DNA of 64,000 nt from an uncultured Gammaproteobacteria bacterium (GTDB lineage: Bacteria > Patescibacteriota > Microgenomatia > Levybacterales > UBA12049), in contig OZ246394.1 of the NCBI GenBank assembly GCA_965230895.1, positions 185,316-249,315 of the forward strand, given 5' to 3'. Positions 21,031-64,000 of this stretch are shown piece by piece; positions within the stretch are counted from its first letter, which is position 1; every line of letters starts with the position of its first letter. The notes under the pieces were generated by a model. It searched no databases. It had not been told where the DNA came from and was given only the letters and a program-made list of their open reading frames with translations. The position numbers were made by a program, and so were the translations under genes.

Positions 21031-21327
21031 TTATTTTCTGCGTTTCTGTAGGTTCTCGTCACTCCAAGCCCACCATTTAAGAAGTTTTGGGTCGTGATGG
21101 TTTTCATTTACAAAATACACCATGCATCGGAATGTATAAAGCATGCACAGATCAGTTTTGTGGCCAACAAGTTTATTTAACTGATCATAAAGCTTTTCAG
21201 GAACTCTTCCTTTGAGATCTTTCGTCGACCGAAAACCCATTGCCCATAAATCTTCTGCAATGGATTTACCTACTCCAGGCATAGTTTGGAATTCTTTGAG
21301 GATTTCGGATTTACTAGACGGCTTCAT
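21031..21327 (-). CDS. helix-hairpin-helix protein (Cdd1 / pathogenicity-locus-like)
   Basis: LKEFQTMPGVGKSIAEDLWAMGF HhH motif. Confidence 0.45.
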   Translation of the reverse strand: MKPSSKSEILKEFQTMPGVGKSIAEDLWAMGFRSTKDLKGRVPEKLYDQLNKLVGHKTDLCMLYTFRCMVYFVNENHHDPKLLKWWAWSDENLQKRRK

Positions 21328-21925
21328 GTACTTCTCTTTTTAGTTCTTCGATGAATTGCCTCATAAATTCATGACGCGGTTTGCCGAGCTCTTTTGCTTT
21401 CTCTGTATAAAGCATGTCATACCATGAATACACCATGATGATCCCTTCATGCATGGTTTGAATATTAAAATAGTCTGCTGTCTCAGGAAAAATCTCATTA
21501 CCGAAGTAATCCGGTTTGGTTGGATGAGTCAAGTATGCGCGTTCTATACCAATTGCACCCATACCATCAAGTTTGTCTGCATCCTGCACAATATTATTAA
21601 GCTTTCCTGTTGTCGTCGGATCACTATGGACATAAATAGATTCGACAATTCTCGCTTTTGCCTCTTCGGATAAGTTAGGATAATCTTTTAAGAGCTCTTT
21701 CGCCATTGGTGCACCTGCATGCGCGTGAGTTTCTTCTCCAAGATCTTTGACAGTTCTTCCCAAATCATGCAGTAATCCGGCAACTTCAGCCTCATGAACA
21801 TCATATCCTTCGGCTTCCGCAATTTGTTTGGCAAGTTTACTTACTCGAAAAACATGTTTGTAGTCGTGGGCTGGGGCATAATATGCTTCAAAGAGTGGTT
21901 CAACTTTTTTGTAGAGTTCTTCCAT
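21314..21925 (-). CDS. HD-domain phosphohydrolase
   Basis: H...HD...D metal-binding pattern (HDYKHVFRV...LLHDLGR...DADKLD). Confidence 0.65.
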   Translation of the reverse strand: MEELYKKVEPLFEAYYAPAHDYKHVFRVSKLAKQIAEAEGYDVHEAEVAGLLHDLGRTVKDLGEETHAHAGAPMAKELLKDYPNLSEEAKARIVESIYVHSDPTTTGKLNNIVQDADKLDGMGAIGIERAYLTHPTKPDYFGNEIFPETADYFNIQTMHEGIIMVYSWYDMLYTEKAKELGKPRHEFMRQFIEELKREVHEAV

Positions 21926-21944
21926 AGAGGAATTTGATTATAGC

Positions 21945-32193: not shown

Positions 32194-32260
32194 GTCAACC
32201 TGATTATCAAGAAATATCAACGTAAAGTCAATAGGAGAGTTAGAACAGGCATTAATACTT

Positions 32261-32488
32261 TCAAATCTGTAATTCCTTTTGTGCTGCTTTAAATGCTTTG
32301 AGATTCTCAAGGAGGTGTTCAGGTGATTTCGTACCAGTGAGGATAGTACCCTGAAAATCTTTTTCTAGAATTGCTTTATATGCTGCAATTTTATCTTCAA
32401 GGGTATGTTGTTTCGAAGAATTATAGAGCATGCTTCCCATATTGAAAGGTCTATTGATAACGACATTTTTCTTGTTTGCTTTAGCCAA
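32261..32488 (-). pseudogene. possible aldo/keto reductase C-terminal remnant
   Basis: ...ILTGTKSPEHLLENLKAF... resembles the C-terminal end of AKRs; no upstream AKR body is present. Confidence 0.2.
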
Positions 32489-32605
32489 GTCTATAATTCT
32501 TCCAAATGTAACAGTGAGGTATCGTGCTTATTTTACAGAGCTGGAGAATCGAGTGCATTGACGCCTTAGTCAATGGTTGGAGTTATTCGAGACCGCGTTT
32601 AGTAT

Positions 32606-33202
32606 TTAGGTTAATTCTTCTATTTGCTTGATTACTATTTGCCAGTTTGGTACTTCAACTCCGAAATGTATGGCTGAAAGGTTGGCTTGGCGGACTCTTT
32701 GGATATATTTGCCGTGATCATCCACCAGTACCGTAATACCTAAGTTCTTGCATTGGACGACTTTATCAATCTGTTTTTTTGTTGGGTCGGAAAAGGAGTA
32801 ATTATCGTCGATTATCAACCCATGTTCGAGTAGGCCCCACTTTGTCAATGTCTGATGGACATATTTACGCACATCAGCATCAAATTCGCCATTGCTGTCG
32901 CACCCCCGTGCTGTCACGAGATAGGTCCGATGCCCCATGTCGTTGAGCGTTTTTATTGCACTGTCTACCCCAGACATCATTTGCATATCAGCAAAAAATT
33001 GCTGCGAGTTTATATGATTATGACGTAAGTGTTGATACATAATATAATCAGTATCAGAGAAACTATAACGGTCTTTTGAATTGGGCGCTTCTATTTTGCA
33101 AATTTGATAACCAAGTTTGTTGGCTATAGCATTTTCCAAAATTGCCATGGCAGTAGCGTTATTTGTGTTAATCACACCATCAAAGTCTATTCCAATATTC
33201 AT
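32606..33202 (-). CDS. HAD-superfamily 5'(3')-deoxyribonucleotidase-like hydrolase
   Basis: IGIDFDGV motif I (DxDGV) and an NT5C-like pattern. Confidence 0.5.
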   Translation of the reverse strand: MNIGIDFDGVINTNNATAMAILENAIANKLGYQICKIEAPNSKDRYSFSDTDYIMYQHLRHNHINSQQFFADMQMMSGVDSAIKTLNDMGHRTYLVTARGCDSNGEFDADVRKYVHQTLTKWGLLEHGLIIDDNYSFSDPTKKQIDKVVQCKNLGITVLVDDHGKYIQRVRQANLSAIHFGVEVPNWQIVIKQIEELT

Positions 33203-33265
33203 GCGATAATTATACTTGACATGCCTATCCTTGACAAACAGGGCTTTGTGTTACATCATAACATC

Positions 33266-33751
33266 ATGATTAAGGTATACGATGTAGAAAAAAATCCAAT
33301 TGAGGTTGACGAAAAAAATCTCATAATGAAACATAACGTTTATGGCATTGCCATTAAAGACGGAAAAGTTCTCATTGTGCCACAATGGCATGATGATGGC
33401 TTTGATTTCCCTGGCGGACATGTAGAACTTGGTGAGCACCACTTGGATGCTTTGAAGAGAGAATTCTTTGAAGAGACAGGACTTGATATTGAAATTGGTC
33501 AGCTGATTTGTGCTGATACGGTTTTCTTTAAACACCCCAAACGAGACTATCCGACTCAACATATAGGTTTGGTTTATGGAGTTACTATCAAGAGTGACAA
33601 AATTTCGATGGATAATTTCGATAAACATGAAAAAACTTATGCTAGAAAAGCAAAGTTTGTGACTCCTGATGAGTTGAAAAGTCTGCGATACATGAGTGGT
33701 TTGCATAAGCAACTGCCGACAATTATTACACATATCAGCCAGCTGATATAA
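33266..33751 (+). CDS. NUDIX hydrolase
   Basis: Nudix box GGHVELGEHHLDALKREFFEETG; start taken at MIKVYD inside ORF 33104..33751. Confidence 0.7.
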   Translation: MIKVYDVEKNPIEVDEKNLIMKHNVYGIAIKDGKVLIVPQWHDDGFDFPGGHVELGEHHLDALKREFFEETGLDIEIGQLICADTVFFKHPKRDYPTQHIGLVYGVTIKSDKISMDNFDKHEKTYARKAKFVTPDELKSLRYMSGLHKQLPTIITHISQLI

Positions 33752-33768
33752 TTTAAAACTGATTTACT

Positions 33769-34332
33769 GTGACCAATAAACAATTTCTACAAGCAAAAGA
33801 ATTAGCATTAGCATTGTTGCATCAAGATAAAGCAAAAGAATTAGCATGTCATGTGCAGTTTGTAGTAATGGTTGGACTTGAATTAGCACAAAAGTATAAT
33901 GTCGATACAAAGATCATAGAACTGAGTTGTCTCCTTCATGATGTCGGAAGAAGTCATGAAATAGAAGACGAGGATCATGGAGATTCTGGTGCTCGTATAA
34001 CAGCAGATTTATTAAGGGATGTAGGGATACCCAAGAAGGAATTTACTACTATTCTTGAGTGCATTCAGAAGCACACTAAAAATTTGCCTTCATATACAAT
34101 TGAACAAAAGATAGTTATAACTGCAGATGGTGCGTCTAAGGTTTTATATCACGAAGCATTTATGCTCCTTTGTAAAAAGCAAACTTATCATGAAAAATTG
34201 GAATGGGGTAAAAAATACCTTGAGAAGGGTTATAAAAGGACACTGATGCCGGAGTACAAAAAAACTCTCGTTAATAAATACAAATCTATTAAAACAACTT
34301 ACGCTTCTATCTCAAGTCCAGTTGAGGCATAG
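33769..34332 (+). CDS. HD-domain phosphohydrolase
   Basis: H...LLHDVGR...D pattern; 17 nt after the NUDIX gene. Confidence 0.6.
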   Translation: MTNKQFLQAKELALALLHQDKAKELACHVQFVVMVGLELAQKYNVDTKIIELSCLLHDVGRSHEIEDEDHGDSGARITADLLRDVGIPKKEFTTILECIQKHTKNLPSYTIEQKIVITADGASKVLYHEAFMLLCKKQTYHEKLEWGKKYLEKGYKRTLMPEYKKTLVNKYKSIKTTYASISSPVEA

Positions 34333-34391
34333 CCACAATACCTCACCGTTACACATTGAGCTAACAAAAACTTTATTCTATCCTTGAGGAC

Positions 34392-34985
34392 ATGAAAGAG
34401 CGTCCAACATTTATTACGCTTCATGGCATAGATGGTACGGGTAAGACAACAACTGCTGCGAGAGTCACAACAAGACTTTCTAATAGTGGATTGCGTGTTG
34501 TTAATTATGACGTCTATGAAAATGAAAATACAGACAATCCGTTCTCTCTTGCCAAAAAACGAGTTTTGCAAGATGCATCACCTCATGCTCAATTCGCTTA
34601 TTTTTTAGGATCCACGCTCTACCATAGTAGTCAGATAGAAAATCTCATTGGAGATGGAAACCATGTGTTAAAAAGTCGGTATGTAGATGATGTAGTGGCA
34701 CATCATAGCCATATAGGAGTTCAAGATGCTGATGCAATAGCATCTATGTTTCCGATTTTGCAGCCAGATTTTAAAGTTATTTTAACTCTAGAAGAAAATG
34801 TCAGAAGGCAGAGAATATTGAATCGAGGAGAATTGGATGACAGGGATAAAGAAGTTAGAACAGCGGAGAGTAGATTGGATTACTTTGAAAAATATTTATT
34901 GGATAGAAATGATGCGTTATTGAGATCAGGAAATGCCTTGAAGCTTGATACTACTGAATCTGAGCCTGAGGAAATAGCTGAATAA
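34392..34985 (+). CDS. thymidylate-kinase-family (d)NMP kinase
   Basis: P-loop ITLHGIDGTGKTT, DRY-like SRYVDD, and a LID-region R-rich segment. Confidence 0.55.
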   Translation: MKERPTFITLHGIDGTGKTTTAARVTTRLSNSGLRVVNYDVYENENTDNPFSLAKKRVLQDASPHAQFAYFLGSTLYHSSQIENLIGDGNHVLKSRYVDDVVAHHSHIGVQDADAIASMFPILQPDFKVILTLEENVRRQRILNRGELDDRDKEVRTAESRLDYFEKYLLDRNDALLRSGNALKLDTTESEPEEIAE

Positions 34986-35014
34986 ATTGTATTTCGCTTG
35001 TTTAATAAATATTC

Positions 35015-36091
35015 ATGAAAGAAGCAATAGGATTTAATACTGAAAAATATCTTGAGTCGCAAACAAATCATATTAATAGAAAAATTCAAGCATTGGAAGG
35101 CGCTCCTGTCTTTATGGAATTTGGTGGTAAACCTTTTGGGGATCACCATGCGGAAAGAGTACTGCCAGGTTATGAAGCAAATTGCAAAGCGAGATTACTT
35201 GCTGATTTAATGCCATCAAGCAAAATTGTCATGGTGGTAAATGCAAAAGATATTTTATTACCTGAATATGGTAGGACACTAAAAGGTCGGGTTAGAGGAG
35301 ATTCACAATTAACGTACGACGACGAAACGATTAGACTAGTTAACCATTCAAGAGAGCTAGGACTTAGTATTAATAATGTCGTATTAGCAGTCTCACCTAA
35401 TAGCCCGACAGATGTGGATAAAAGAGCGATTGACAGTTTTAGAAACGAATTAGACCGAGAAGGTATAAAGATGTATCAACACTTTGAAGTTCAAGGGTAT
35501 CCAAGTACAAATGTAATTGATCACGCAGAAGAGGTATTTAATAAAAACGATAGAATTACGAACGGCACTGAACACCTAATTGCATTTAGTCCGGGTGGAG
35601 GAAGTGGTAAGTTTGGTGTGCTCCTTTCCGAGATATACCGATCATTACAGGAAGGTTACAATCCAAATTATATTAAATTTGAAACATTTCCTATATTTAC
35701 TGTTGATTCACATCATGCGTTAAATCTTGCATTTGAAGCGGCAACAGCAGATTTACAAAACAAAGTTATTTCTCTTAGCGCAGACCCAAATAATCCTATT
35801 ACTACATATGACAAAGATATTGAGAATTATTTTTTGTTAAAAAAGGTATTTGGCTTATATGGAAGAGTTTATAATCCTGTAGATGATATGTGTGATCCTA
35901 CGGCAATGTCAGTGAATACAATAATGGAGGGTGTTACTGACGAACAAGTTGTTATATTTGCCTGCGGAGATGAGATAAGAAGAAGAGTCAAGCGTTACGA
36001 ATATGAAGTAGATTTAGGGATTGAAAAAACTTCTACCCTGGAACGTGCAAAAGAAATCTTTGATATTTTTAGGGCAAGATATGGAGACTAA
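35015..36091 (+). CDS. DUF1846/UPF0371-like protein (shorter than typical family members)
   Basis: N-terminus MKEAIGFNTEKYLESQ...FMEFGGKPFGDHHAERVLPGYE matches my recollection of the UPF0371 family start; identification from memory only. Confidence 0.35.
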   Translation: MKEAIGFNTEKYLESQTNHINRKIQALEGAPVFMEFGGKPFGDHHAERVLPGYEANCKARLLADLMPSSKIVMVVNAKDILLPEYGRTLKGRVRGDSQLTYDDETIRLVNHSRELGLSINNVVLAVSPNSPTDVDKRAIDSFRNELDREGIKMYQHFEVQGYPSTNVIDHAEEVFNKNDRITNGTEHLIAFSPGGGSGKFGVLLSEIYRSLQEGYNPNYIKFETFPIFTVDSHHALNLAFEAATADLQNKVISLSADPNNPITTYDKDIENYFLLKKVFGLYGRVYNPVDDMCDPTAMSVNTIMEGVTDEQVVIFACGDEIRRRVKRYEYEVDLGIEKTSTLERAKEIFDIFRARYGD

Positions 36092-36100
36092 AAATATTAC

Positions 36101-36667
36101 TTATTCAAGTATTTCCATTGCGAGGCCTTCTTCTAGAAGTTGACGGATATAGACGGATTTGGGGAGATTTTTCTTCTTCGAAATCTGATTGAGTTTGTTG
36201 ACCATCTCTGTTGGAAAAAGTACGTTATATTTTTGGTATTTTTTGATGGGGTTGCATTCTAGAGCTTCTTGAATAATCCTGAAAAGTGTTTCTTTGGTGT
36301 ATTCATAAATATAGATATTTTTATTAAGATTAAGCTGATCAGATGTCATCACATCTGGAGGTGCGTTCTTTGATTTCAGCATGATGATTTCTTTTCCTTG
36401 CTGAATCGCATGAGAAATTTCAAACCCGACATGTACGCTTGGGTATGTGCATTCTGCAATGACAATATCGCTTTTGGCTATATTCGCGTAGAACGTATTG
36501 AAGAATGCAGTCCTTCTAGTCTCATTCCAGGAATAGAGAGTCTCAACGGAAACTGAAAAGCTTTGAATCACTGTATGCCCAGCATCAGTAAGATAATTGG
36601 CAATCGCCAGAAAATGTTCTTTAGATTTGGCAGATATTTCAATCGGAGCTAGTAAAGCGATGCGCAT
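36101..36667 (-). CDS. nucleoside 2-deoxyribosyltransferase/Rcl (dNMP N-glycosidase)-like domain fused to a C-terminal ribbon-helix-helix
   Basis: N-terminal IALLAPIE...DIVIAECTYPSVHVGFEISHAIQQGK (DRT-like Rossmann pattern); C-terminal FPTEMVNKLNQISKKKNLPKSVYIRQLLEEGL matches the CopG/Arc beta-alpha-alpha pattern. Confidence 0.45.
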   Translation of the reverse strand: MRIALLAPIEISAKSKEHFLAIANYLTDAGHTVIQSFSVSVETLYSWNETRRTAFFNTFYANIAKSDIVIAECTYPSVHVGFEISHAIQQGKEIIMLKSKNAPPDVMTSDQLNLNKNIYIYEYTKETLFRIIQEALECNPIKKYQKYNVLFPTEMVNKLNQISKKKNLPKSVYIRQLLEEGLAMEILE

Positions 36668-36668
36668 A

Positions 36669-36887
36669 TTATTTTATCGGGATGTATAAGCCATAACAGA
36701 TATTCGCTTTTCTTTTTGATAATCCCAATTGCATGCTATTTTCTGCAAAAATCTCCAGAAATTCTTTACTTATATTCTTTCTTCGATCGAGAAGAATATC
36801 GTCGACATATTCATACCCTTTCCGGATTGCGTTGTTGGGTGTGAGTTCTTCATTAAATAATGGTGATAAACCTGCATGTTTCATCAT
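36669..36887 (-). CDS. small hypothetical protein, paralog A
   Basis: 72 aa; shares TPxxAxxKGYxYVxDI ... FxE ... GLYI blocks with ORF 37028..37258. Confidence 0.35.
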   Translation of the reverse strand: MMKHAGLSPLFNEELTPNNAIRKGYEYVDDILLDRRKNISKEFLEIFAENSMQLGLSKRKANICYGLYIPIK

Positions 36888-37027
36888 TATATTTATGTCG
36901 TAAGCATAGGATCTATGCTAATATCTGTCAAAAATACTCAGAAAATAAGTGCAAAGCTATCTGTTTTAGATTGATATATCAAAAATAATTAATGTTGGTA
37001 TTGTTGTAATACTTTTGACAACAAACA

Positions 37028-37258
37028 CTATATTCTTCGGATATATAACCCAAAATGTTTCTTCTTAGGTTTTCCTAACGGCTCACCTATCTTGTACCCT
37101 TGTATTTCAGCAAACTCTAAAAGATCAAGGAGTGTTTTGTACAAATTTGGAATGTCTTCAACATACTTATATCCTTTAGTTGGAGCTGTTTGTGGAGTAA
37201 GATTTGTATCAATTATAGAAAGTTTCTTCTTATGAATAATTTGTTCACAGAGACACAT
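37028..37258 (-). CDS. small hypothetical protein, paralog B
   Basis: 76 aa; paralogous to 36669..36887. Confidence 0.35.
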   Translation of the reverse strand: MCLCEQIIHKKKLSIIDTNLTPQTAPTKGYKYVEDIPNLYKTLLDLLEFAEIQGYKIGEPLGKPKKKHFGLYIRRI

Positions 37259-37340
37259 ATTTATCTATGTCAGTATATGTTATATATTGCTTGAATGCTT
37301 GATATTAAAATGATAAAATAATGACGGAATTAGCTTTAAA

Positions 37341-38471
37341 ATGAAATATAATTTTTCAGAGAAGATTTTAGCTCCTAATTTTCGTAAAGATATTACGGAT
37401 CAGATTGAGGTTCTTATCTCAACAGGGTCATCATTTAATATTATTGGAATGCCATTTGTGGGGATTTCCCCTTTTTTTAGATATTTGGCGACAACAAGTT
37501 CTTCATACTCCATTTACACTGATGTTCATGCGTTATCGAATAGAAAGAAGGAAGATTTATTTTTGGCAATATATAAAGAGTTAGGCGGAACAGAATCAAT
37601 ACCTACTTATGAAGCATTTGACTATTGTAAAGAGATTTTAAAGGAATTACTTTCTACACAAAAAAAAGTTGTGCTAATGATTAATAGATTTGATTATTTA
37701 GAGAAGTCAGAGTACTCCAATGGAATATTTACTAATCTAAAAGCGCTTGAAGATATTGGTAAGGGGAGAGTAATTTTTGTAGTCGCTACAAGTAAACCTC
37801 TTTATGAAATTGATGAGGCAGCAATTTCTGATAGTAATCTTGCCTTTTTTTCAAAAATCGTATTCTTCCCTCCTTATTATGGTGAGGATTTGAAAAAGCT
37901 ACTTTTAATAAGTCCAACTGCTTTGAAGCCTGAACCAAAGGATTTAAGAACGGCACTCGATTTAAGTGGTGGTCATGCAACGCTACTTCAAGTTTTAATA
38001 AAAACCGATTTTCTAAATGATCCTTTTTCTGATCCTTTTATTAAACTACACTTAAAGGTCATTTATGATGCTTGTAGTACAAAACAGAAAAATATACTAT
38101 ATAAATTAGCTGTGGGGAGTAGATTAAAAGAAATAGATCCCTTCCTGATAAAAATAGGTATTATAAAAGAAATAAATGGCAGCTTTTACGTCTTTAGCCC
38201 CCTCTTTAGAACATTTTTGATTAATTATGTAAAACTAAAATTTTCTAAGAAAGAAAAAGTATTGTTTACGCTTTTAAAAAAGCACTTAGGTAGAACAGTC
38301 CTAAAAGATCAAATATTTCAAGAACTTTGGAAAGAAGATTTTGATAAACCTACGGATTGGGCTCTAAACTCTTTGGTTTATCGTTTAAGAAAAAATCCAA
38401 CAGTTATAAATAATAAATATATTATCGAGAATGAGAAAGATATTGGTTATAAGCTACTAAAGGGGAATTAG
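37341..38471 (+). CDS. ATPase-like domain (degenerate P-loop) fused to C-terminal OmpR/PhoB-type winged-helix DNA-binding domain
   Basis: N-terminal ...NIIGMPFVGISPF (GxxxxGIS in place of GxxxxGKS); C-terminal ...LFTLLKKHLGRTVLKDQIFQELW...WALNSLVYRLRKN...IENEKDIGYKL matches the trans_reg_C pattern. Confidence 0.45.
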   Translation: MKYNFSEKILAPNFRKDITDQIEVLISTGSSFNIIGMPFVGISPFFRYLATTSSSYSIYTDVHALSNRKKEDLFLAIYKELGGTESIPTYEAFDYCKEILKELLSTQKKVVLMINRFDYLEKSEYSNGIFTNLKALEDIGKGRVIFVVATSKPLYEIDEAAISDSNLAFFSKIVFFPPYYGEDLKKLLLISPTALKPEPKDLRTALDLSGGHATLLQVLIKTDFLNDPFSDPFIKLHLKVIYDACSTKQKNILYKLAVGSRLKEIDPFLIKIGIIKEINGSFYVFSPLFRTFLINYVKLKFSKKEKVLFTLLKKHLGRTVLKDQIFQELWKEDFDKPTDWALNSLVYRLRKNPTVINNKYIIENEKDIGYKLLKGN

Positions 38472-38863
38472 ATAGTTTTTTCTGTAGGGTTTTTAAAATC
38501 TAATACGACTGTTTCCTTCTTTTCCCCAACTTTTGCTGTTATAGAATCTATTTCCCAGCCTTCGCCAGCTTTTGGAACAACTTGTTCAGGATCATAAGTA
38601 ACTTCTATTGCATCGCCTACTTTAAGATCGCGCATTAAAAGCTTTCCATATACTGCTTGGGCATTTTCGCCTCTAACACTATAAGGTCGTGGGTCTATTT
38701 TTGCGACTGATTGATCAGCAAGGCCTCTTTCAGGGGTAATTTGAAAAGTAACTTTTGCTCGAGAGTTATCTCCGTCGGGTAATCCAAGTGGATTTGGGAT
38801 TTCTGCACGGTGATGCGCAACAATTCCTCGAATCTTTATTGGTTGTCTTTCTGCATTACTCAT
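38468..38863 (-). CDS. hypothetical protein
   Basis: 131-aa ORF; no motif. Confidence 0.3.
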   Translation of the reverse strand: MSNAERQPIKIRGIVAHHRAEIPNPLGLPDGDNSRAKVTFQITPERGLADQSVAKIDPRPYSVRGENAQAVYGKLLMRDLKVGDAIEVTYDPEQVVPKAGEGWEIDSITAKVGEKKETVVLDFKNPTEKTI

Positions 38864-38918
38864 TAGAGAGTATTATACTCTAGGTCTAATGAAATGTCAA
38901 TAGTAGAGTCTAAAAAGC

Positions 38919-38950
38919 AAAAAGCATAAAAATACCATTTTATGCTTTTT
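38919..38950 (-). terminator. intrinsic terminator hairpin (perfect 13-bp stem, 6-nt loop)
   Basis: AAAAAGCATAAAA-atacca-TTTTATGCTTTTT, immediately downstream of the GlcG-like gene on the minus strand, with a U-run following the stem. Confidence 0.55.
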
Positions 38951-38970
38951 GTGTTGTTATTGTTAAAGTC

Positions 38971-39375
38971 TTACGATTGAAGGACTTCTGCTGCAGCCTT
39001 AGCGCATTGAGCATCTTGACTCACATCAAGAGAACCTCCTACACCAACTCCGCCGACAACTTTTCCTCCTACCATTACAGGAGCACCTCCTGCGATAGTT
39101 GTGAGTTCTCCACCAAAGAGAGTGTTCAGTCCAAAATATGGTTTTTCTTCAACGACGTATCCTGCGAGTCCTTCTGTTGGACTGCCTAAGTTCGCTGAAG
39201 TAAATGCTTTCGCAAATGCAAACCGAGGGCTTATATGTAATGCCCCATCCATCTTGCTAACAGCAATAATACTTCCGTGGTCGTCAACAATTACTGTCGT
39301 AACTGCTACTCCCAGTTCAGCTGCTTTTGCTTCTGCTGCTACTAAAGCCTGTTTTGCTTTTTCTAGAGTAATCAT
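38971..39375 (-). CDS. GlcG/HbpS-like (DUF336) heme-binding-fold protein
   Basis: G-rich C-terminal block (VMVGGKVVGGVGVGGS) and the overall DUF336 pattern. Confidence 0.6.
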   Translation of the reverse strand: MITLEKAKQALVAAEAKAAELGVAVTTVIVDDHGSIIAVSKMDGALHISPRFAFAKAFTSANLGSPTEGLAGYVVEEKPYFGLNTLFGGELTTIAGGAPVMVGGKVVGGVGVGGSLDVSQDAQCAKAAAEVLQS

Positions 39376-39570
39376 TAAGATATCACCCCCTTTCAGATTA
39401 AATAATACATTATTAGATTAATTAATTGCTGTCAAGATAGTACTTGCATTTTTTGGAAAAAGTGCTATAATGCGCATAACTTATAGTAAATGACTATATA
39501 TTATTGTTAAGCTAACACTAGCAATTTTTAAAAGTATATAGTATATTTCTATATAGAGCGTGAATTTAAT

Positions 39571-40638
39571 ATGAGTGAAGCACTTTTTAGAGGCGGAGCC
39601 GACAAAGCAAAATTCCGTGCACCAGCACAGGGAAGCTCCGGTGCTGAGCAAATTGCCTCAGTTACTCCAATCACAGACGCACCATCATCTCCTGCGAGAA
39701 GAGAATCAACTCGATTAAATATCAAAGATCCTCGTCATGTAGATCAAGCAGCAAGAATCCTTACAGAAACAACAGACCCTGTATTTGTACAGTTTGGTAA
39801 TATCCATGGTGTATTTGGCCATCCATCTGACGAAGCAGTAAGTAGTATTAACGAATTTAAAGGCCGAAAACCTGATCAGGTTGGAAGTATTACTACAACA
39901 CAAAAGCATTGGGAAGGTATTGCAGATTGGTCACAACTTGATCCTGAAGCTATTTCAAAAGGAACTGCACTTGAAATTGTCCGGGACTTAAGTAATATTG
40001 GACCAATAGGTGCAGTACTTCCAGCAGCTGAGCATATTCCAGGGTTATTATCTAAAAAAGATGCATATAACGGAGGCCCAATCAGAACTGTACAGTTGAT
40101 TGTGCCTGGTACTGGAGCTCCAGCAGAGGCAGTCTTTAGTAGAGCAGCGGATCTTATGCCTGATAAACCATTCGTATTCGCGACATCAGGAAATACATCA
40201 AAAGCTGTAAACGACGGAAAAGAGCAGCCAGCGCATCATAGATATGAAGATCTTGTCGCTGAGTTTGAAAGCCACGGTCATGATGGTATTACCGTTATTA
40301 CAGCGCAAAATGAAGCTCGCGCAAAGCATAAATTCCCATACAATGATCATAGATCAACATCAATTCTTCGATTACATGATGTTGTCCGACAAGAAAATGG
40401 AGAACCACAGCTTGATGAGCAAGGACGAAAAATTCTTGAAGTTACCCGTGATGGATCAATGCATCAAGGTGTCCTTCGTGAAGTCTTAGCAAATCATGGC
40501 TATGGAGTTATCTTCCCTGCTCCTGAAAAGCGTGTACCTATTCGAGATTATTCTGAAGCAGAACGAAGAATGCGTGCATTACGAACCAAAAAAGCAGATA
40601 TTCTCTACCGATTGGGTATGACTCCTGCACATAGATAA
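39571..40638 (+). CDS. divergent YrdC/Sua5-fold protein with C-terminal extension
   Basis: ...VFVQFGNIHGVFGHPSDEAVSSINEFKGRKPDQ...TVQLIVPGTG...FATSGNTSK parallels the YrdC motifs (PTDTVYGLG, IKGR, TVGVRIP, TSANxSG); has extra N- and C-terminal regions. Confidence 0.35.
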   Translation: MSEALFRGGADKAKFRAPAQGSSGAEQIASVTPITDAPSSPARRESTRLNIKDPRHVDQAARILTETTDPVFVQFGNIHGVFGHPSDEAVSSINEFKGRKPDQVGSITTTQKHWEGIADWSQLDPEAISKGTALEIVRDLSNIGPIGAVLPAAEHIPGLLSKKDAYNGGPIRTVQLIVPGTGAPAEAVFSRAADLMPDKPFVFATSGNTSKAVNDGKEQPAHHRYEDLVAEFESHGHDGITVITAQNEARAKHKFPYNDHRSTSILRLHDVVRQENGEPQLDEQGRKILEVTRDGSMHQGVLREVLANHGYGVIFPAPEKRVPIRDYSEAERRMRALRTKKADILYRLGMTPAHR

Positions 40639-40681
40639 CTCCTAAATTGACTATTGCCTAGCATTTACCCATAATAAATTT

Positions 40682-42202
40682 ATGGGAACAGATCAGTTTT
40701 TGCTCTACGGTTCATTGGCGATTCTTTATATTATAGCATTTATCTATATTATCGATTCTGTTAAGCAACATAAATCCCGTGATGTATACCTTAAAAGAGA
40801 AAAGAAAAATGAATCAGTCCTCAAAGCGCGGGAACGCGCACTCAATGCGACCGCTGCCTTGAATACTATTATTTTAGAGACATTGGATCTTGATGAAGCA
40901 ATTGGAAAGATCTCAAATTCTCTTCCACAGTATTTAGGTTATGAGACTGGTGTACTCGCGCTTATTGATGAATCAAAAGGCGTCCTCAAACGTGTCGGTC
41001 TTTCAAGTACTTCAGGCGGTATTGCGGCCGTAAAAGTTTTGGAAATACCATTTTCAAGCATTGAGATTAAATTAAGTGATAAAGAAAACTATTGTATCAA
41101 AGCTCTCGAACAAAAGAAGCCGCTTTATACCCGAGATTTATATGATGTTGTCCGTCCGGCAATTACCCCTGAGAACTCAAAGATTATTCAGAAGCACATG
41201 AATACCAAAACAACACTTATCTTCCCTATCTTTTCAAAAGAAGGAAAGCCGCTTGGAACCTTCCTAATTAGCATGAGCAAAGATTATAGTGAGATATCGG
41301 AATTTGAACATCAGACGATTAAAAATTTCATTGATTCTGTCCGCATTGCTTTAAATAATGCTACCTTATACACATCTCTGCAAAAAGCGACAGACGAGCT
41401 CAAAGAAGCAAATGAAAAACTGAAAGAATTGGATACGCTGAAAAATGAATTTGTTTCTGTGGCTTCTCATGAACTTCGTACGCCGATGACTGCTATCAAA
41501 TCATACCTCTGGATGGCACTTGAAGACCGTGGAGGTAAGCTGAATGAAAAGCAGCGTTACTATATCCAACGAGGATATAATTCGGTGGATCGGCTTATAC
41601 GCCTTGTCAATGACATGCTCAACATTTCTCGTATTGAAGCAGGAAGAATTACCGTAAATATGCAATCTGTTGATCTTGAAAAATTAGCTCAAGAAGTTAT
41701 CGATGAAGTGCAGCCGCGTGCAAAAGAAGTTGGTGTGAGCGTCACAATGGAAAAGCATGAGAAATTACCTCAAGTGCTTGCTGACTCTGATAAGATTAAA
41801 GAAGTCTTCTTTAATTTGATTGGTAATTCAATCAAATTTACACCAAAAGATGGGAAGATTACTGTCGGGTTTAGACAAAAAGATGGACTCATTGAGACTG
41901 TGATCAAAGATACAGGGAGTGGTATTGAAGCTGAAGATATCGGAAAGCTTTTCCAGAAATTCGGACTTCTTCCTGGTTCTTATACAACTAATCAGCCTGC
42001 AATGGGTACTGGTTTGGGGCTTTATATCTGCCGATCAATTGTGGAATTACATCAAGGAAAGATCTGGGCAGAATCTGATGGACGAGGTAAAGGTGCGACA
42101 TTTACATTCCAATTAAAAAAGTTTTCCAAAGCTGACCAAGAAGAATTTAATATGAGTACCGCGGATAAAGAAGATGCGGGATTGATCCACAGTGAAATTT
42201 AA
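40682..42202 (+). CDS. sensor histidine kinase (TM + GAF + HisKA + HATPase_c)
   Basis: N-terminal TM helix, H-box FVSVASHELRTPMT, and a C-terminal G-box pattern. Confidence 0.8.
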   Translation: MGTDQFLLYGSLAILYIIAFIYIIDSVKQHKSRDVYLKREKKNESVLKARERALNATAALNTIILETLDLDEAIGKISNSLPQYLGYETGVLALIDESKGVLKRVGLSSTSGGIAAVKVLEIPFSSIEIKLSDKENYCIKALEQKKPLYTRDLYDVVRPAITPENSKIIQKHMNTKTTLIFPIFSKEGKPLGTFLISMSKDYSEISEFEHQTIKNFIDSVRIALNNATLYTSLQKATDELKEANEKLKELDTLKNEFVSVASHELRTPMTAIKSYLWMALEDRGGKLNEKQRYYIQRGYNSVDRLIRLVNDMLNISRIEAGRITVNMQSVDLEKLAQEVIDEVQPRAKEVGVSVTMEKHEKLPQVLADSDKIKEVFFNLIGNSIKFTPKDGKITVGFRQKDGLIETVIKDTGSGIEAEDIGKLFQKFGLLPGSYTTNQPAMGTGLGLYICRSIVELHQGKIWAESDGRGKGATFTFQLKKFSKADQEEFNMSTADKEDAGLIHSEI

Positions 42203-49117: not shown

Positions 49118-49651
49118 TCAAATTGCCGAACTTTTTTGTTTTAAATATTCTAAAAGTTCTTTTTCATAACCCATTATTGACCAATTTTTATCCTGGGTTT
49201 TAATAATTACTTCATATAAACTTTCAATTGAAACCCATTTCACTTCTTCAACTTCATCCTTTTCTAATGTTAATTCGGCAACTTTCCCATTCCAAAATAA
49301 ATAATGTACTCCTTGAAACTCTTTTCCTTGTAAGTCTTTGAAAATAGTAAACTGATGTATATCTTCTTCAAGCGCCTGAATGCCTAACTCTTCTTCTAAT
49401 TCATTTCTGGCATTTGTGATGTAGGCTTCATCAGGTGCCATGTGTCCTCCAAAGAAGGGTTCCCATTTCCCAGGATTCATGTCTTTTAGTAGAGATCTTT
49501 TTTGACAGAGTATTTCACTGTGAGAATTAATAATCCAAATATGTGCAGTTCTATGCCAATATCCATCTCTATGCACTTCATGTCTTGGCTTAGGTTCTGT
49601 TGGGATATTGTTCTCATCAACTACGAACAAGAGTTCACTACGATTAATCAT
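49118..49651 (-). CDS. NUDIX hydrolase
   Basis: Nudix box GGHMAPDEAYITNARNELEEELG. Confidence 0.7.
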   Translation of the reverse strand: MINRSELLFVVDENNIPTEPKPRHEVHRDGYWHRTAHIWIINSHSEILCQKRSLLKDMNPGKWEPFFGGHMAPDEAYITNARNELEEELGIQALEEDIHQFTIFKDLQGKEFQGVHYLFWNGKVAELTLEKDEVEEVKWVSIESLYEVIIKTQDKNWSIMGYEKELLEYLKQKSSAI

Positions 49652-63032: not shown

Positions 63033-63467
63033 TTATTTACTCTTCTGTTCTTCGAGGAATTCAACTGCGCTATCAACAAGTTCTTTCGTTAAAGGAACTG
63101 TCTGCTCAAAGTCAATTTCATCATAGTGAACCCATTTGGCCTCACCTGTATTTCTGTCTCGTGAGACATCAATATCTCCAGAAACATATTTCCCCACGAA
63201 ACCTAAGACAATGATGTGACTATTTGTCAGTGGATCAGAATAATTGAAGGCGAAAGGGTGCTTGGATAAAAGTTCAATCTTTACTCCAGTCTCTTCCCAA
63301 ACTTCACGGACAACGGCATCTCTCGGATCTTCGCCAAATTCGATTCCGCCACCTGGGAATTGCCATAGTTTATTGAATTGATTCCTCGTTTCGTCACGAC
63401 GACCCATGAGGATTCGCCCCTCTCTATCAAAAACTACTGCTAAAACTGGATAATGTGTTCTGGACAT
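63033..63467 (-). CDS. NUDIX hydrolase
   Basis: Nudix box GGGIEFGEDPRDAVVREVWEETG. Confidence 0.7.
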   Translation of the reverse strand: MSRTHYPVLAVVFDREGRILMGRRDETRNQFNKLWQFPGGGIEFGEDPRDAVVREVWEETGVKIELLSKHPFAFNYSDPLTNSHIIVLGFVGKYVSGDIDVSRDRNTGEAKWVHYDEIDFEQTVPLTKELVDSAVEFLEEQKSK

Positions 63468-63468
63468 A

Positions 63469-64000
63469 TTACTTTAATTTGGCTTGGAATTTTGTTTCCA
63501 ATGCTTTCAAAATCTTTTCTCGGATCTCCCCTACTTCTTTATCAGTTAAGTTCTTTTGATAACTTTGGTATACCACATGGAATGTTCGAGTTTCCTTATA
63601 TTTATCCAAAAGTGAAACAGCAACGATTAATGCACTTTGCTTTGCGATATGTTCCATGATATCTCCGGTCAAAACATTTGCTGGTGCGATAATTGCTAAG
63701 TCTTCGACGATCGGAGGATATTTACTCGCTGGTTTGTAGAATCTCTTTTGTTTAACATTTTCCAAAATGATATCCACGTCGAGTTCAAAATCAATTGTTT
63801 TGTCATCAAGTACTTCGATGACTCCAGCATCTTTTTTGTTGATGAATACTGATGCACCATATCGATCATCGCTGAGTTGTTTGAAGACAACATCAGTAAT
63901 GCCGAGATCATCGAGTAATTGTTCGACGATTCCTTTTACTTCATAGAAAGAAACTTTTGACCGATGGATAAGTCCTGCCAATCGAAGAATTTGTTTTGGT
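63469..64000 (-). CDS. pheT: phenylalanine--tRNA ligase beta subunit, C-terminal part (5' end of the gene lies beyond the window)
   Basis: C-terminal FDX-ACB (anticodon-binding, ferredoxin-fold) region; the ORF is open to the window edge. Confidence 0.6.
   Translation of the reverse strand, partial: PKQILRLAGLIHRSKVSFYEVKGIVEQLLDDLGITDVVFKQLSDDRYGASVFINKKDAGVIEVLDDKTIDFELDVDIILENVKQKRFYKPASKYPPIVEDLAIIAPANVLTGDIMEHIAKQSALIVAVSLLDKYKETRTFHVVYQSYQKNLTDKEVGEIREKILKALETKFQAKLK

What the first reader, a model, noticed from the sequence alone, without database searches (positions are those of the whole stretch)
32606..38471. AT-rich deoxynucleotide-metabolism island with DRT(Rcl)-like::RHH fusion, small paralog pair and ATPase::wHTH regulator
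Within ~6 kb, every enzyme-like gene acts on (deoxy)nucleotides. The island opens with a HAD 5'(3')-deoxynucleotidase-like gene. A tight co-directional block of NUDIX, HD phosphohydrolase, dTMP-kinase-family kinase and DUF1846-like genes follows, with intergenic gaps of 17-59 nt. On the other strand lies a nucleoside 2-deoxyribosyltransferase/Rcl (dNMP N-glycosidase)-like domain fused to a C-terminal ribbon-helix-helix DNA-binding module. Next to it are two small paralogous ORFs (72 and 76 aa) of unknown family and a protein joining an ATPase-like domain with a degenerate Walker A (GMPFVGIS) to a C-terminal OmpR/PhoB-type winged helix. The whole stretch is clearly AT-richer than the flanking pilus/housekeeping DNA, suggesting acquisition. 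Two readings are possible. It may be a dNMP/dNTP scavenging and catabolic module, consistent with a CPR-like organism living on salvaged nucleosides. Or it may be a nucleotide-centred conflict (dNTP-pool-manipulating) system whose regulators are the RHH and wHTH proteins. The DRT-RHH architecture and the DUF1846 linkage are not ones I know to be described.
Basis: partly seen in the sequence, partly recalled or inferred. Interest (0 to 1): 0.7.

Follow-up and report, generated by a model that had tools for sequence, protein, structure and literature searches.

The report
Mosaic slot with split PyrJ operon
This AT-rich stretch is not one system: it is a swap-prone slot inside a pilus gene cluster of a Patescibacteria-like bacterium, and it holds a widely conserved nucleotide operon in which a shortened relative of the recently discovered second CTP synthase (PyrJ/DUF1846) is paired with a thymidylate-kinase-like protein, alongside a rare, unrelated three-gene module of unknown function.

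Summary
The genes and most domain calls are real. NUDIX, HD, Tmk-like, DUF1846, the DNPH1/Rcl-like::RHH fusion, the two small paralogs and the C-terminal OmpR-type wHTH are all verified. The NT5C and ATPase calls are weak. The AT-richness is modest.

The region is a mosaic, not one island. A sister genome has about 90%-identical pilus flanks but different cargo in the same slot, sharing only the small–small–DNPH1::RHH trio.

The main new point concerns DUF1846. The full-length family is PyrJ, an ammonia-dependent CTP synthase (2024 preprint). The window protein is a 358-aa N-domain-only form that keeps 39 conserved N-domain positions but lacks the C-terminal domain. In 28 of 30 short-form loci, almost all from Patescibacteria, a Tmk-like gene sits in the same operon. 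In 44 long-form loci it never does. Fusions exist in both orders. Frequent neighbours are NUDIX, MazG, HD and, in one clade, PyrG.

The best reading is a housekeeping-type pyrimidine-nucleotide interconversion module. The chemistry is inferred only. The DNPH1-like::RHH trio is rare and fast-evolving, and its function is unknown. A single conflict system is not supported.

The parts
32194..40681 (.). Hypervariable cargo slot inside the type IV pilus cluster. It lies between the response-regulator/PilC side and the HisKA/prepilin-peptidase side.
   Evidence: In sister locus L079 the flanks are 80-98% identical at the protein level (PilT 98%, PilC 93%, RR 93%, prepilin peptidase 89%). The roughly 10 kb between them holds different genes (Orn/DAP decarboxylase, SET, GT2, GH1 and others). 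Only the H-G-F trio is shared. There are no tRNA genes, no integrase and no flanking direct repeats.
32606..33202 (-). Gene A: HAD-superfamily phosphatase, 198 aa, substrate unknown.
   Evidence: It carries the DxDGV motif. NT5C is matched only at E 0.018, 15.4 bits against a cutoff of 24.8. Identity to the true NT5C next to the L084 operon is only 18%.
33221..33751 (+). Gene B: NUDIX hydrolase, 176 aa as called in L001.
   Evidence: PF00293 at E 2.5e-14. A NUDIX gene sits directly upstream of the Tmk-like gene in L023 and L087 too. NUDIX is the commonest neighbour family of the pair, in 7 of 103 neighbour ORFs.
33769..34332 (+). Gene C: small HD (HDIG) phosphohydrolase, 187 aa.
   Evidence: PF01966 at 2.7e-9; TIGR00277 at 30.0 bits against 27.6. 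Orthologs lie directly upstream of, and overlapping, the Tmk-like gene in L005-L009, L084 and L086, and inside the operon in L024.
34392..34985 (+). Gene D: thymidylate-kinase-family kinase, 197 aa, the partner of short PyrJ.
   Evidence: PF02223 at 7.7e-13. TIGR00041 scores 51.5 bits, below the 83.25 cutoff. The P-loop GIDGTGKTT is intact. The Arg of ASR, the Asp of DRY and the Gln of AYQ seen in aligned Tmk structures are replaced. It is adjacent to or fused with short DUF1846 in 28 of 30 loci.
35015..36091 (+). Gene E: N-domain-only homologue of PyrJ (DUF1846/UPF0371), 358 aa.
   Evidence: PF08903 at 5.6e-72, covering profile positions 1-328 of 333. It aligns to residues 7-322 of the 496-aa PDB chain 7f00 at E 1.5e-54. 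The C-domain is absent. 39 N-domain columns are at least 90% conserved in both short and long forms, including the SPGGGSGK P-loop, KFETFP and AATAD motifs.
36101..36667 (-). Gene F: DNPH1/Rcl-like domain (residues ~1-137) fused to a C-terminal ribbon-helix-helix (~146-188).
   Evidence: The family has only 18 clusters, all about 188 aa, from Levybacteria/Patescibacteria. It keeps Glu83 and Ser77 but lacks the Tyr, the Asp69 equivalent and the GSIRGG phosphate loop of Rcl.
36669..36887 (-). Gene G: small protein, 72 aa, of an unnamed family. It ends 1 nt before the start codon of F.
   Evidence: It is a paralog of H. A family profile finds 66 cluster representatives of 65-90 aa, some as tandem duplications. 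There is no Pfam hit.
37028..37258 (-). Gene H: small protein, 76 aa, of the same family as G.
37341..38471 (+). Gene I: orphan regulator with a C-terminal OmpR/PhoB winged helix and an uncharacterised N-terminal region of about 296 aa. It is transcribed divergently from H.
   Evidence: PF00486 at 3.4e-9. The N-terminal part has no Pfam hit and only faint ORC1/Cdc6 similarity. It has the lowest GC of 64 ORFs, 0.306. In other genomes the equivalent divergent position is held by XRE-type or TrmB regulators.
38468..38863 (-). Gene J: 131-aa protein without any family hit. It is also slot cargo, as are the HbpS-like gene at 38971-39375 (-) and the 355-aa ORF at 39571-40638 (+).
   Evidence: These genes have no counterpart in the sister slot.

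Best explanation
The 32.2-40.7 kb stretch is a cargo slot inside the type IV pilus gene cluster, and its content is exchanged between close relatives. It contains at least two independent modules.

(1) Genes B-E (NUDIX, HD, Tmk-like kinase, short PyrJ) are a Patescibacteria-wide nucleotide operon. Its invariant core is the pair Tmk-like kinase plus N-domain-only PyrJ. Full-length PyrJ makes CTP from UTP, ATP and ammonia. The short form keeps the conserved P-loop N-domain but has lost the C-terminal domain, and it always recruits a pyrimidine-NMP-kinase-type partner instead, either as a neighbour or as a fusion. I infer that the pair carries out ATP-dependent U-to-C (C4) amination coupled to (d)NMP phosphorylation. 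I further infer that the recurrent NUDIX, HD and MazG hydrolases feed or balance the monophosphate pool. On this reading the module is pyrimidine salvage and interconversion for an organism that lives on scavenged nucleotides.

(2) Genes H-G-F (two small paralogs plus DNPH1-like::RHH) are a separate, rare, fast-evolving module next to a replaceable divergent regulator, here gene I. The most likely role is a self-regulating module in which the degenerate DNPH1-like domain binds a ligand or the small proteins, while the RHH represses the operon.

Shown: the gene content, the homologies, the linkage statistics, the fusions and the slot variability. Inferred: all chemistry and all regulation.
For: Slot variability:
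- The sister locus L079 has 80-98% identical flanks but different cargo.

DUF1846 = PyrJ:
- Synthetic lethality with pyrG, rescue by cytidine, and purified enzyme converting UTP to CTP with NH3 only (10.1101/2024.09.24.614635).

Short form:
- It is a large subfamily of about 360 aa with 39 N-domain columns conserved in common with long forms.

Linkage to the Tmk-like gene:
- The Tmk-like gene is directly adjacent on the same strand in 27 of 30 short-form loci, and within the same operon in a 28th (L024).
- It is adjacent in 0 of 44 long-form loci (Fisher p = 3e-17).
- Fusions occur in both orders: Tmk::PyrJN in P0022, P0040, P0107 and L009; PyrJN::Tmk in P0057.
- Start and stop codons overlap in L084, L086 and L087.

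Pathway context:
- PyrG-Tmk-PyrJN operons in L010, L012 and L014.
- ThyA-DHFR next door in L085.
- HD/NT5C/NUDIX in L084.
- Neighbour census: NUDIX 7, MazG-like 5, HD 5.
- A PyrJN::2H-phosphoesterase fusion, P0060.
- A housekeeping setting between ArgRS and IleRS in L086.

Module 2:
- F is DNPH1-like by profile and by fold.
- The arrangement small gene(s) + F + divergent HTH regulator recurs in L079, L082 and L088. In L081 no small gene is called directly upstream of F, but a separate small + short F-like pair lies about 3 kb away.
- Its proteins are only 49-69% identical between sister genomes whose flanks are about 90% identical.
Against: - The PyrJ authors propose that the missing C-terminal, cytidine-deaminase-like domain is the aminating part. 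If they are right, the short form cannot aminate by itself, and the Tmk-like partner shows no profile similarity to that domain (hhalign probability 0.3%).
- No biochemical data exist for any short form.
- In the PyrJN-then-Tmk clade the partner scores near or above the dTMP-kinase equivalog cutoff (80.5-93.2 bits). It may simply be the cell's ordinary Tmk.
- PyrG coexists with the pair in one clade, so the pair is not merely a PyrG substitute.
- The closest sister genome seems to lack the module. No hit lies on its 1.32 Mb contig, and the best non-self hit is 63% identical. The module is therefore dispensable in this lineage.
- For module 2, nothing beyond architecture supports any function. 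F lacks three of five Rcl active-site features.
Confidence: 0.55

Rival explanations
1. The short PyrJ/Tmk-like pair catalyses a different ATP-dependent nucleotide reaction, not C4 amination. This would follow if the aminating C-terminal domain of PyrJ is indispensable. The conserved P-loop N-domain would then serve, for example, as a kinase, ligase or pyrophosphokinase acting with an NMP kinase.
For: The short form lacks the whole C-domain. The PyrJ authors assign a cytidine-deaminase-like fold to that domain and speculate that it runs in reverse. The Tmk-like partner is not homologous to it. Partners and neighbours all handle phosphate esters of nucleotides.
Against: - The 39 residues conserved between short and long forms include nearly all polar N-domain positions, which suggests the same core chemistry.
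- The long-form C-domain has no conserved Cys and no conserved H/C-A-E zinc motif in 42 sequences. HAE appears in L012 among the sequences I inspected, and the only fully conserved residue among Cys/His/Glu is one His. It is therefore unlikely to be a classical deaminase site.
- By analogy, the PyrG synthetase domain alone performs NH3-dependent amination. This is established knowledge, not tested here.
- The pair is linked to PyrG in an operon.
Confidence: 0.27
2. The whole stretch is one nucleotide-centred conflict (dNTP-pool-manipulating) system, controlled by the RHH and wHTH proteins.
For: - The DNA is AT-rich and sits in a variable slot.
- Individual proteins hit PADLOC models: NUDIX to PDC-S07 at 4.6e-12, the Tmk-like protein to PDC-M51B at 2.9e-14 and VakA at 4.5e-9.
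- Another low-GC patch 12 kb away carries an AAA_13 ATPase.
Against: - The components are not co-inherited. In 74 DUF1846 loci none carries A, F, G, H, I or J. F-family loci lack B-E.
- HD-Tmk-PyrJN sits among aminoacyl-tRNA synthetase genes in L086.
- The PADLOC hits are generic family resemblances, and F, G, H and I hit no model.
- Neither F nor close relatives of E occur on viral contigs.
Confidence: 0.06
3. Genes H-G-F form a toxin-antitoxin-like addiction module with reversed gene order, as in HicAB. Small toxin(s) are encoded upstream of a larger antitoxin, whose N-terminal domain neutralises the toxin and whose C-terminal RHH autoregulates.
For: - The RHH of F weakly matches RelB-like and BrnA antitoxin models (E 0.0025 and 0.085) and a CopG-like repressor PHROG.
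- G's stop lies 1 nt before F's start. In L079 and L088 the genes overlap by 4 nt.
- The module is rare, diverges fast (49-69% against about 90% for flanks) and lies in variable DNA next to other TA pairs in relatives (L082).
Against: - G and H match no toxin family in Pfam, NCBIfam or PADLOC and have no structural neighbour.
- The small family also occurs without F (L090), and F-like genes occur without an RHH (L081).
- Two paralogous toxin genes in one operon would be unusual.
Confidence: 0.25
4. The nucleotide genes are unrelated housekeeping genes that happen to be neighbours, with no functional coupling.
For: A and B have no orthologs next to DUF1846 in relatives. Only generic family-level similarity is seen. 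The window contains further scattered NUDIX and HD genes.
Against: Adjacency holds in 28 of 30 short-form loci against 0 of 44 long-form loci. There are independent fusions in both orders and overlapping start/stop codons for the D-E pair. HD is coupled to the pair in the closest clade.
Confidence: 0.05

Closest known systems
PyrJ (Spd_0310, DUF1846/UPF0371), the ammonia-dependent CTP synthase of Streptococcus pneumoniae (bioRxiv 10.1101/2024.09.24.614635; structures 7F00, 3BH1)
   Same: [quoted passage not shown] It shares 39 columns that are conserved at 90% or more, including the P-loop and the KFETFP and AATAD motifs.
   Different: E stops at 358 aa and lacks the C-terminal domain of about 150 aa (residues 343-485 in 7F00). 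It comes from Patescibacteria, whereas PyrJ was reported mainly from Firmicutes and Actinobacteria. It is obligately linked or fused to a Tmk-like kinase, which long forms never are.
PyrG, the canonical glutamine-dependent CTP synthase
   Same: It belongs to the same pathway step as proposed here. It is encoded directly upstream of the Tmk-like/PyrJN pair in L010, L012 and L014.
   Different: There is no sequence relationship. PyrG has its own amidoligase and GATase domains.
dTMP kinase (Tmk, TIGR00041/PF02223)
   Same: Gene D has the Tmk fold and the P-loop GIDGTGKTT. It aligns to Tmk structures 3hjn and 4mqb.
   Different: It scores below the equivalog cutoff (51.5 against 83.25 bits). Three Tmk motif residues are replaced: ASR to GST, DRY to SRY, AYQ to AHH. 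The Arg is missing across the whole partner family.
DNPH1/Rcl (2'-deoxynucleoside 5'-phosphate N-hydrolase, also called 5-hydroxymethyl-dUMP N-hydrolase) and MilB/BlsM CMP hydrolases of the nucleoside 2-deoxyribosyltransferase superfamily
   Different: The Rcl phosphate loop GSIRGG is APIE here. The catalytic Tyr and Asp69 equivalents are Ala and Phe. A C-terminal RHH DNA-binding domain is added. No such architecture was found in the searched literature.
HicAB-type and other type II toxin-antitoxin modules with RHH antitoxins
   Same: A small gene lies upstream of a larger protein ending in an RHH. The two genes are tightly coupled. The module sits in variable DNA.
   Different: No toxin or antitoxin family membership is detectable. 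There are two small paralogs. The N-terminal domain is an enzyme-like DNPH1 fold.

Membership tests
PyrJ / DUF1846 (NH3-dependent CTP synthase) | [quoted passage not shown] | tested here: met
   PF08903 at E 5.6e-72, 242.8 bits. 39 columns are at least 90% conserved in both the 29 short and the 42 long forms.
PyrJ / DUF1846 (NH3-dependent CTP synthase) | C-terminal domain of about 150 aa (cytidine-deaminase-like fold, tetramer interface) | tested here: not met
   The protein ends at residue 358 and the next gene is on the other strand. It matches only positions 3-332 of the 494-position NF010184 model (249 bits against a cutoff of 631).
PyrJ / DUF1846 (NH3-dependent CTP synthase) | Converts UTP to CTP with ATP and NH3 | not testable with these tools
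   This needs an enzyme assay or complementation.
dTMP kinase (Tmk) | Score at or above the TIGR00041 equivalog cutoff | tested here: not met
   51.5 bits against 83.25. Of 10 partner proteins from other loci, only 1 passes (93.2 bits) and 2 are borderline.
dTMP kinase (Tmk) | P-loop plus the DRY and ASR/AYQ substrate-site motifs seen in aligned Tmk structures | tested here: inconclusive
   The P-loop is present. Arg, Asp and Gln are replaced in the window protein. DRY is kept in other partner clades, but the Arg is absent family-wide.
DNPH1/Rcl - nucleoside 2-deoxyribosyltransferase superfamily | Fold and sequence-profile similarity | tested here: met
DNPH1/Rcl - nucleoside 2-deoxyribosyltransferase superfamily | Complete catalytic and phosphate-binding set (Tyr, Asp, Glu, Ser, GSIRGG loop). 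The residue roles are taken from my knowledge of Rcl. | tested here: not met
   Glu83 is nearly invariant (>=90%; one Gln, in P0130) and Ser77 is mostly kept. Tyr is replaced by Ala, the Asp69 equivalent by Phe, and GSIRGG by APIE.
Ribbon-helix-helix (CopG/Arc/MetJ) DNA-binding domain | Beta-alpha-alpha module matching RHH profiles | tested here: inconclusive
   There are three weak, concordant hits: RHH_3 at 1.1e-3, RelB-like at 2.5e-3 and CopG-like PHROG at 4.7e-3. The model shows two helices, 153-166 and 170-187, after a low-confidence strand region. This is the most conserved part of the family.
OmpR/PhoB winged-helix regulators | Trans_reg_C domain above the gathering score | tested here: met
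   37.1 bits against 26.2, residues 299-372. No receiver domain is present.
AAA+/ORC-Cdc6-like or STAND ATPases (N-terminal part of gene I) | Recognisable NTPase domain with a Walker A lysine | tested here: not met
   Only NF001624 at E 0.0016 and TIGR02928 at 0.028. There is no Pfam hit for residues 1-296. The motif GMPFVGIS has Ile at the lysine position.
NT5C 5'(3')-deoxyribonucleotidase | PF06941 above the gathering score | tested here: not met
   15.4 bits against 24.8. There is no informative PDB match.
Known anti-phage defence systems (PADLOC-DB 2.0) | Hits to the component set of one system | tested here: not met
   There are only generic single-protein hits for the NUDIX, HD and Tmk folds, and none for F, G, H, I or J.

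The most novel reading that the evidence does not exclude
The Tmk-like/short-PyrJ pair is a new two-component (sometimes fused) enzyme in which an NMP-kinase-type domain has replaced the C-terminal domain of PyrJ. On this reading, pyrimidine C4 amination takes place on a monophosphate or deoxy substrate (for example UMP/dUMP to CMP/dCMP, or dTMP to 5-methyl-dCMP) rather than on UTP. I know of no enzyme that performs this reaction. It would be a CPR-specific route for rebalancing scavenged nucleotides, and it would also show that the PyrJ N-domain alone holds the amination chemistry.
Probability: 0.15. Interest if true: 0.8.

Novelty: new variant of a known kind. Interest (0 to 1): 0.55.

Why it matters
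PyrJ is only the second CTP synthase known, and so far it has been described only from Firmicutes and Actinobacteria in a single preprint. A domain-swapped form that is widespread in Patescibacteria bears on two questions.

First, it gives a natural experiment on which PyrJ domain does the chemistry. The short form drops the C-domain that the discoverers suspect is the aminase.

Second, it points to a specific, testable step in how ultra-small, nucleotide-scavenging bacteria balance their pyrimidine pools.

The work also assigns a probable pathway to a large set of genes currently annotated as 'DUF1846 family protein' and 'dTMP kinase' in CPR genomes. The DNPH1-like::RHH trio and its small-protein family (66 clusters, no Pfam family) are minor additions to the catalogue of uncharacterised accessory modules.

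Tried and rejected
- Is the Tmk-like partner a diverged PyrJ C-domain? hhalign of 26 partners against 42 C-domains gave probability 0.3%. Rejected.
- tRNA and Rfam scans of the window found nothing.
- Flanking att-like repeats or operator-like repeats in the slot and in the 36.85-37.36 kb intergenic DNA: only short chance-level matches, apart from a 25-nt 72% repeat upstream of both G and H that reflects the gene duplication.
- The promoter and terminator scan was at or below shuffle expectation.
- PADLOC gave no system-level hit.
- Viral contigs: F is absent. DUF1846 hits are all at or below 38% identity and are probably long-form, though I did not check.
- The metagenome scan for F found only 2 loci, one already known.
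- A word-based homologue search for H found only the sister genome. The exhaustive profile search was needed.
- Pfam on multidomain members of the small family found nothing.
- PDB searches for the HAD protein and for gene I were uninformative.
- Hemin binding was claimed for DUF1846 (PMC9238395). I did not adopt it as the primary function because the later genetic and enzymatic evidence is more direct.

Full report
**1. What is in the sequence**

- A, 32606-33202 (-)
- B, 33221-33751 (+)
- C, 33769-34332 (+)
- D, 34392-34985 (+)
- E, 35015-36091 (+)
- F, 36101-36667 (-)
- G, 36669-36887 (-)
- H, 37028-37258 (-)
- I, 37341-38471 (+)

Profile searches confirm NUDIX (B, E 2.5e-14), HD/HDIG (C, 2.7e-9), thymidylate-kinase family (D, 7.7e-13), the DUF1846 N-terminal domain (E, 5.6e-72) and an OmpR/PhoB winged helix at the C-terminus of I (3.4e-9).

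Two calls are weak. A is a HAD phosphatase whose NT5C match is sub-threshold (15.4 against 24.8 bits). The N-terminal 296 residues of I have no Pfam match and only faint ORC1/Cdc6 similarity, with Ile at the Walker A lysine position.

GC is lower than in the rest of the window. The eight genes have GC 0.31-0.40, against 0.404 +/- 0.029 elsewhere (p = 0.0014). GC3 does not differ (p = 0.23). Gene I is the most AT-rich of 64 ORFs. The window has no tRNA or Rfam feature.

**2. The region is a variable slot, not one island**

The exact sequence occurs only in one sample series and on a 1.61 Mb NCBI contig.

A sister genome from the same series (L079) has the same pilus-gene frame: MFS, holB, PilB, PilT, PilC and a response regulator on one side, and HisKA, prepilin peptidase and pilins on the other. 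These flanks are 80-98% identical at the protein level. Between the response regulator and HisKA, however, the sister carries different genes: Orn/DAP decarboxylase, SET, an XRE-type regulator, GAF, GT2 and GH1. Only the trio H-G-F is shared, and only at 62, 49 and 69% identity.

A more distant relative (L081) again has different cargo.

I found no integrase, no tRNA and no flanking repeats. How the cargo is exchanged is therefore unknown. The slot spans about 32.2-40.7 kb, which is wider than the finding.

**3. Module 1: NUDIX-HD-Tmk-like-short PyrJ**

E matches only the first roughly 330 positions of the roughly 495-aa DUF1846 family and of PDB chains 7f00 and 3bh1. This is not a truncation artefact, because hundreds of homologues of about 360 aa exist, labelled Patescibacteria where named.

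The literature search changed the interpretation. A 2022 paper called the S. pneumoniae member a hemin-binding protein (PMC9238395). A 2024 preprint then showed that it is PyrJ, an ammonia-dependent CTP synthase. The evidence was synthetic lethality with pyrG, rescue by cytidine, and purified enzyme converting UTP to CTP (10.1101/2024.09.24.614635). [quoted passage not shown] They report the family mainly from Firmicutes and Actinobacteria. No other paper in the library mentions PyrJ.

A scan of one genome per species returned 74 loci. I searched their six-frame ORFs with the window proteins. The results were:
- Of 30 short-form loci, 27 have a Tmk-like gene directly adjacent on the same strand. 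One more (L024) has it in the same operon, separated by HD.
- None of the 44 long-form loci has a Tmk-like gene adjacent (Fisher p = 3e-17).
- The two exceptions are L017, which has two short copies, and L076, a DPANN archaeon.
- Fusions occur in both orders: Tmk::PyrJN in P0022, P0040, P0107 and L009, and PyrJN::Tmk in P0057. One protein, P0060, is fused to a 2H phosphoesterase.
- In a neighbour-joining tree the long forms make one clade. The short forms fall into two groups that correspond to the two gene orders.
- The short and long forms share 39 columns conserved at 90% or more, including the SPGGGSGK P-loop, KFETFP and AATAD.

The Tmk-like partner is not a diverged PyrJ C-domain (hhalign probability 0.3%).

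**4. Context of the pair in other genomes**

- HD overlaps the Tmk-like start codon in the closest clade (L005-L009, L084, L086).
- L084 also carries a true NT5C and a NUDIX nearby.
- L087 and L023 have NUDIX directly upstream.
- L085 has ThyA and DHFR next door.
- L086 places HD-Tmk-PyrJN between ArgRS and IleRS.
- L010, L012 and L014 have PyrG-Tmk-PyrJN.

In a census of the 103 nearest neighbour ORFs in 28 loci, the top families were NUDIX (7), MazG-like (5) and HD (5).

A and B of the window are not orthologs of those neighbours. The similarity is at family level only. None of A, B, F, G, H, I or J accompanies DUF1846 elsewhere.

Every recurrent partner either makes or uses nucleoside monophosphates. 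That observation underlies my inference that the system works around the (d)NMP level.

**5. The Tmk-like partner**

D has an intact P-loop but scores below the dTMP-kinase equivalog cutoff (51.5 against 83.25 bits). Against Tmk structures it replaces the Arg of ASR, the Asp of DRY and the Gln of AYQ. The Arg is absent throughout the partner family.

Partners in the PyrJN-then-Tmk clade are closer to canonical Tmk (80.5-93.2 bits). The association may therefore have begun with an ordinary Tmk that later diverged. The window holds no second Tmk. The rest of the genome could not be examined.

**6. A caveat on the chemistry**

If the missing C-domain is the aminase, as the PyrJ authors speculate, the short form must work differently.

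Two things argue against that. In 42 long-form C-domains I found no conserved Cys and no conserved H/C-A-E motif; the HAE motif survives in L012 among the sequences inspected, and one His is invariant. In addition, the N-domain is the more strongly conserved part.

I therefore favour, at roughly 0.5, U-to-C amination by the N-domain, with the Tmk-like protein supplying or binding the pyrimidine nucleotide. I keep 'a different ATP-dependent nucleotide reaction' as a serious rival.

The sister genome appears to lack the module. No hit lies on its 1.32 Mb contig, and the best non-self hit is 63% identical. Together with the lower GC, this fits gain or loss as a cassette and means the module is dispensable in this lineage. 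This point is an inference.

**7. Module 2: H-G-F and gene I**

F belongs to a tiny family: 18 clusters, all about 188 aa, from Levybacteria/Patescibacteria.

The motif AEC-x2-PS-x3-G[FY]EI keeps the Glu and Ser of Rcl. The GSIRGG phosphate loop is APIE, and the Tyr and Asp69 equivalents are Ala and Phe. The residue roles come from my knowledge of Rcl. N-glycosidase activity on dNMPs is therefore doubtful.

The C-terminal 40 residues are the best-conserved part and give three weak but concordant RHH hits.

G and H are paralogs. An exhaustive profile search found 66 cluster representatives of 65-90 aa, some as two or three tandem copies. The shared motifs are D-x2-LTP-x-NA-x2-KGY-x-YIDDI, GYKLG-x-P and GLY-x-P. 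The family has no Pfam model, and the confident model (pLDDT 83) has no structural neighbour.

The arrangement divergent HTH regulator, small gene(s), then F recurs in L079, L082 and L088. L081 has the divergent regulator and F, but no small gene is called directly upstream of F. It also holds a second, RHH-less F-like gene preceded by a small-family gene.

The regulator differs between loci (XRE-type, TrmB, or gene I here), so I is a replaceable neighbour and not a fixed component. The small family also occurs without F (L090). F is absent from viral contigs and nearly absent from the metagenome collection.

The function is unknown. I rank a self-regulating module, either ligand- or partner-sensing or TA-like, as most likely.

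**8. Verdict**

The single-island interpretation is not.

The valuable part is the conserved short-PyrJ/Tmk-like pair, which I could not find described anywhere. It is a new variant of a very recently recognised enzyme family. It offers a clear experimental test and bears on nucleotide economy in CPR bacteria.

Interest is 0.55. Novelty: new variant of a known kind.

Noticed in passing
window 50466-52805 (+), with GC dip at 50-53 kb: A second AT-rich patch (GC 0.30-0.34) encodes a 779-aa AAA_13 ATPase (PF13166, E 7e-40). Proteins of this kind (PrrC/RloC-like ABC ATPases) are often found in defence or abortive-infection loci.
   Followed up: partly
window 40682-42202 (+): The HisKA sensor kinase bordering the slot is only 58% identical to the sister genome's kinase, which carries GAF domains. 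Its neighbours are about 90% identical. The sensor part may belong to the variable region.
   Followed up: partly
window 49118-49651 (-), 63036-63473 (-), 21317-21937 (-): Further NUDIX genes and one further HD gene are scattered through the window. Mere presence of such genes is therefore not specific to the island.
   Followed up: no
window 33202-33266: A and B start only 18 nt apart on opposite strands. A near-consensus promoter (TTGTCA-17-TATAAT, 33237-33209, minus strand) ends 6-7 nt before A's ATG. A plus-strand site (33231-33259) ends just before an in-frame ATG at 33266. This hints at leaderless transcripts and at a later start for B.
   Followed up: no
window 32261-32488 (-): A short ORF (59-75 aa) with no family hit lies between the response regulator and gene A. 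It has no counterpart in the sister slot and may be a gene remnant.
   Followed up: no
L012 4011-5660 (-) and L017 9025-10062 (-): Some Patescibacteria loci carry two DUF1846 genes close together: short plus long in L012, and two convergent short copies without a Tmk-like gene in L017.
   Followed up: partly
C-domains of 42 long-form DUF1846 proteins (L026-L078): The C-terminal domain, described as cytidine-deaminase-like, has no conserved Cys and no conserved H/C-A-E motif. HAE is present in L012 among the sequences inspected, and one His is invariant. This bears on the published idea that this domain is the aminase.
   Followed up: partly
L090 2131-3561: Two small-family genes in tandem lie directly upstream of an amino-acid-kinase-family gene (PF00696, the family that includes UMP kinase), with no DNPH1-like gene nearby.
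   Followed up: no
L005, L006, L010, L012, L014 and other TPA_asm MAGs: Contigs whose genes are typical of Patescibacteria carry record titles saying 'uncultured Gammaproteobacteria bacterium'. The labels look wrong.
   Followed up: no
window 38917-38952: A 15-bp-stem palindrome with T-runs on both sides lies between gene J and the HbpS-like gene. It looks like a bidirectional terminator.
   Followed up: no
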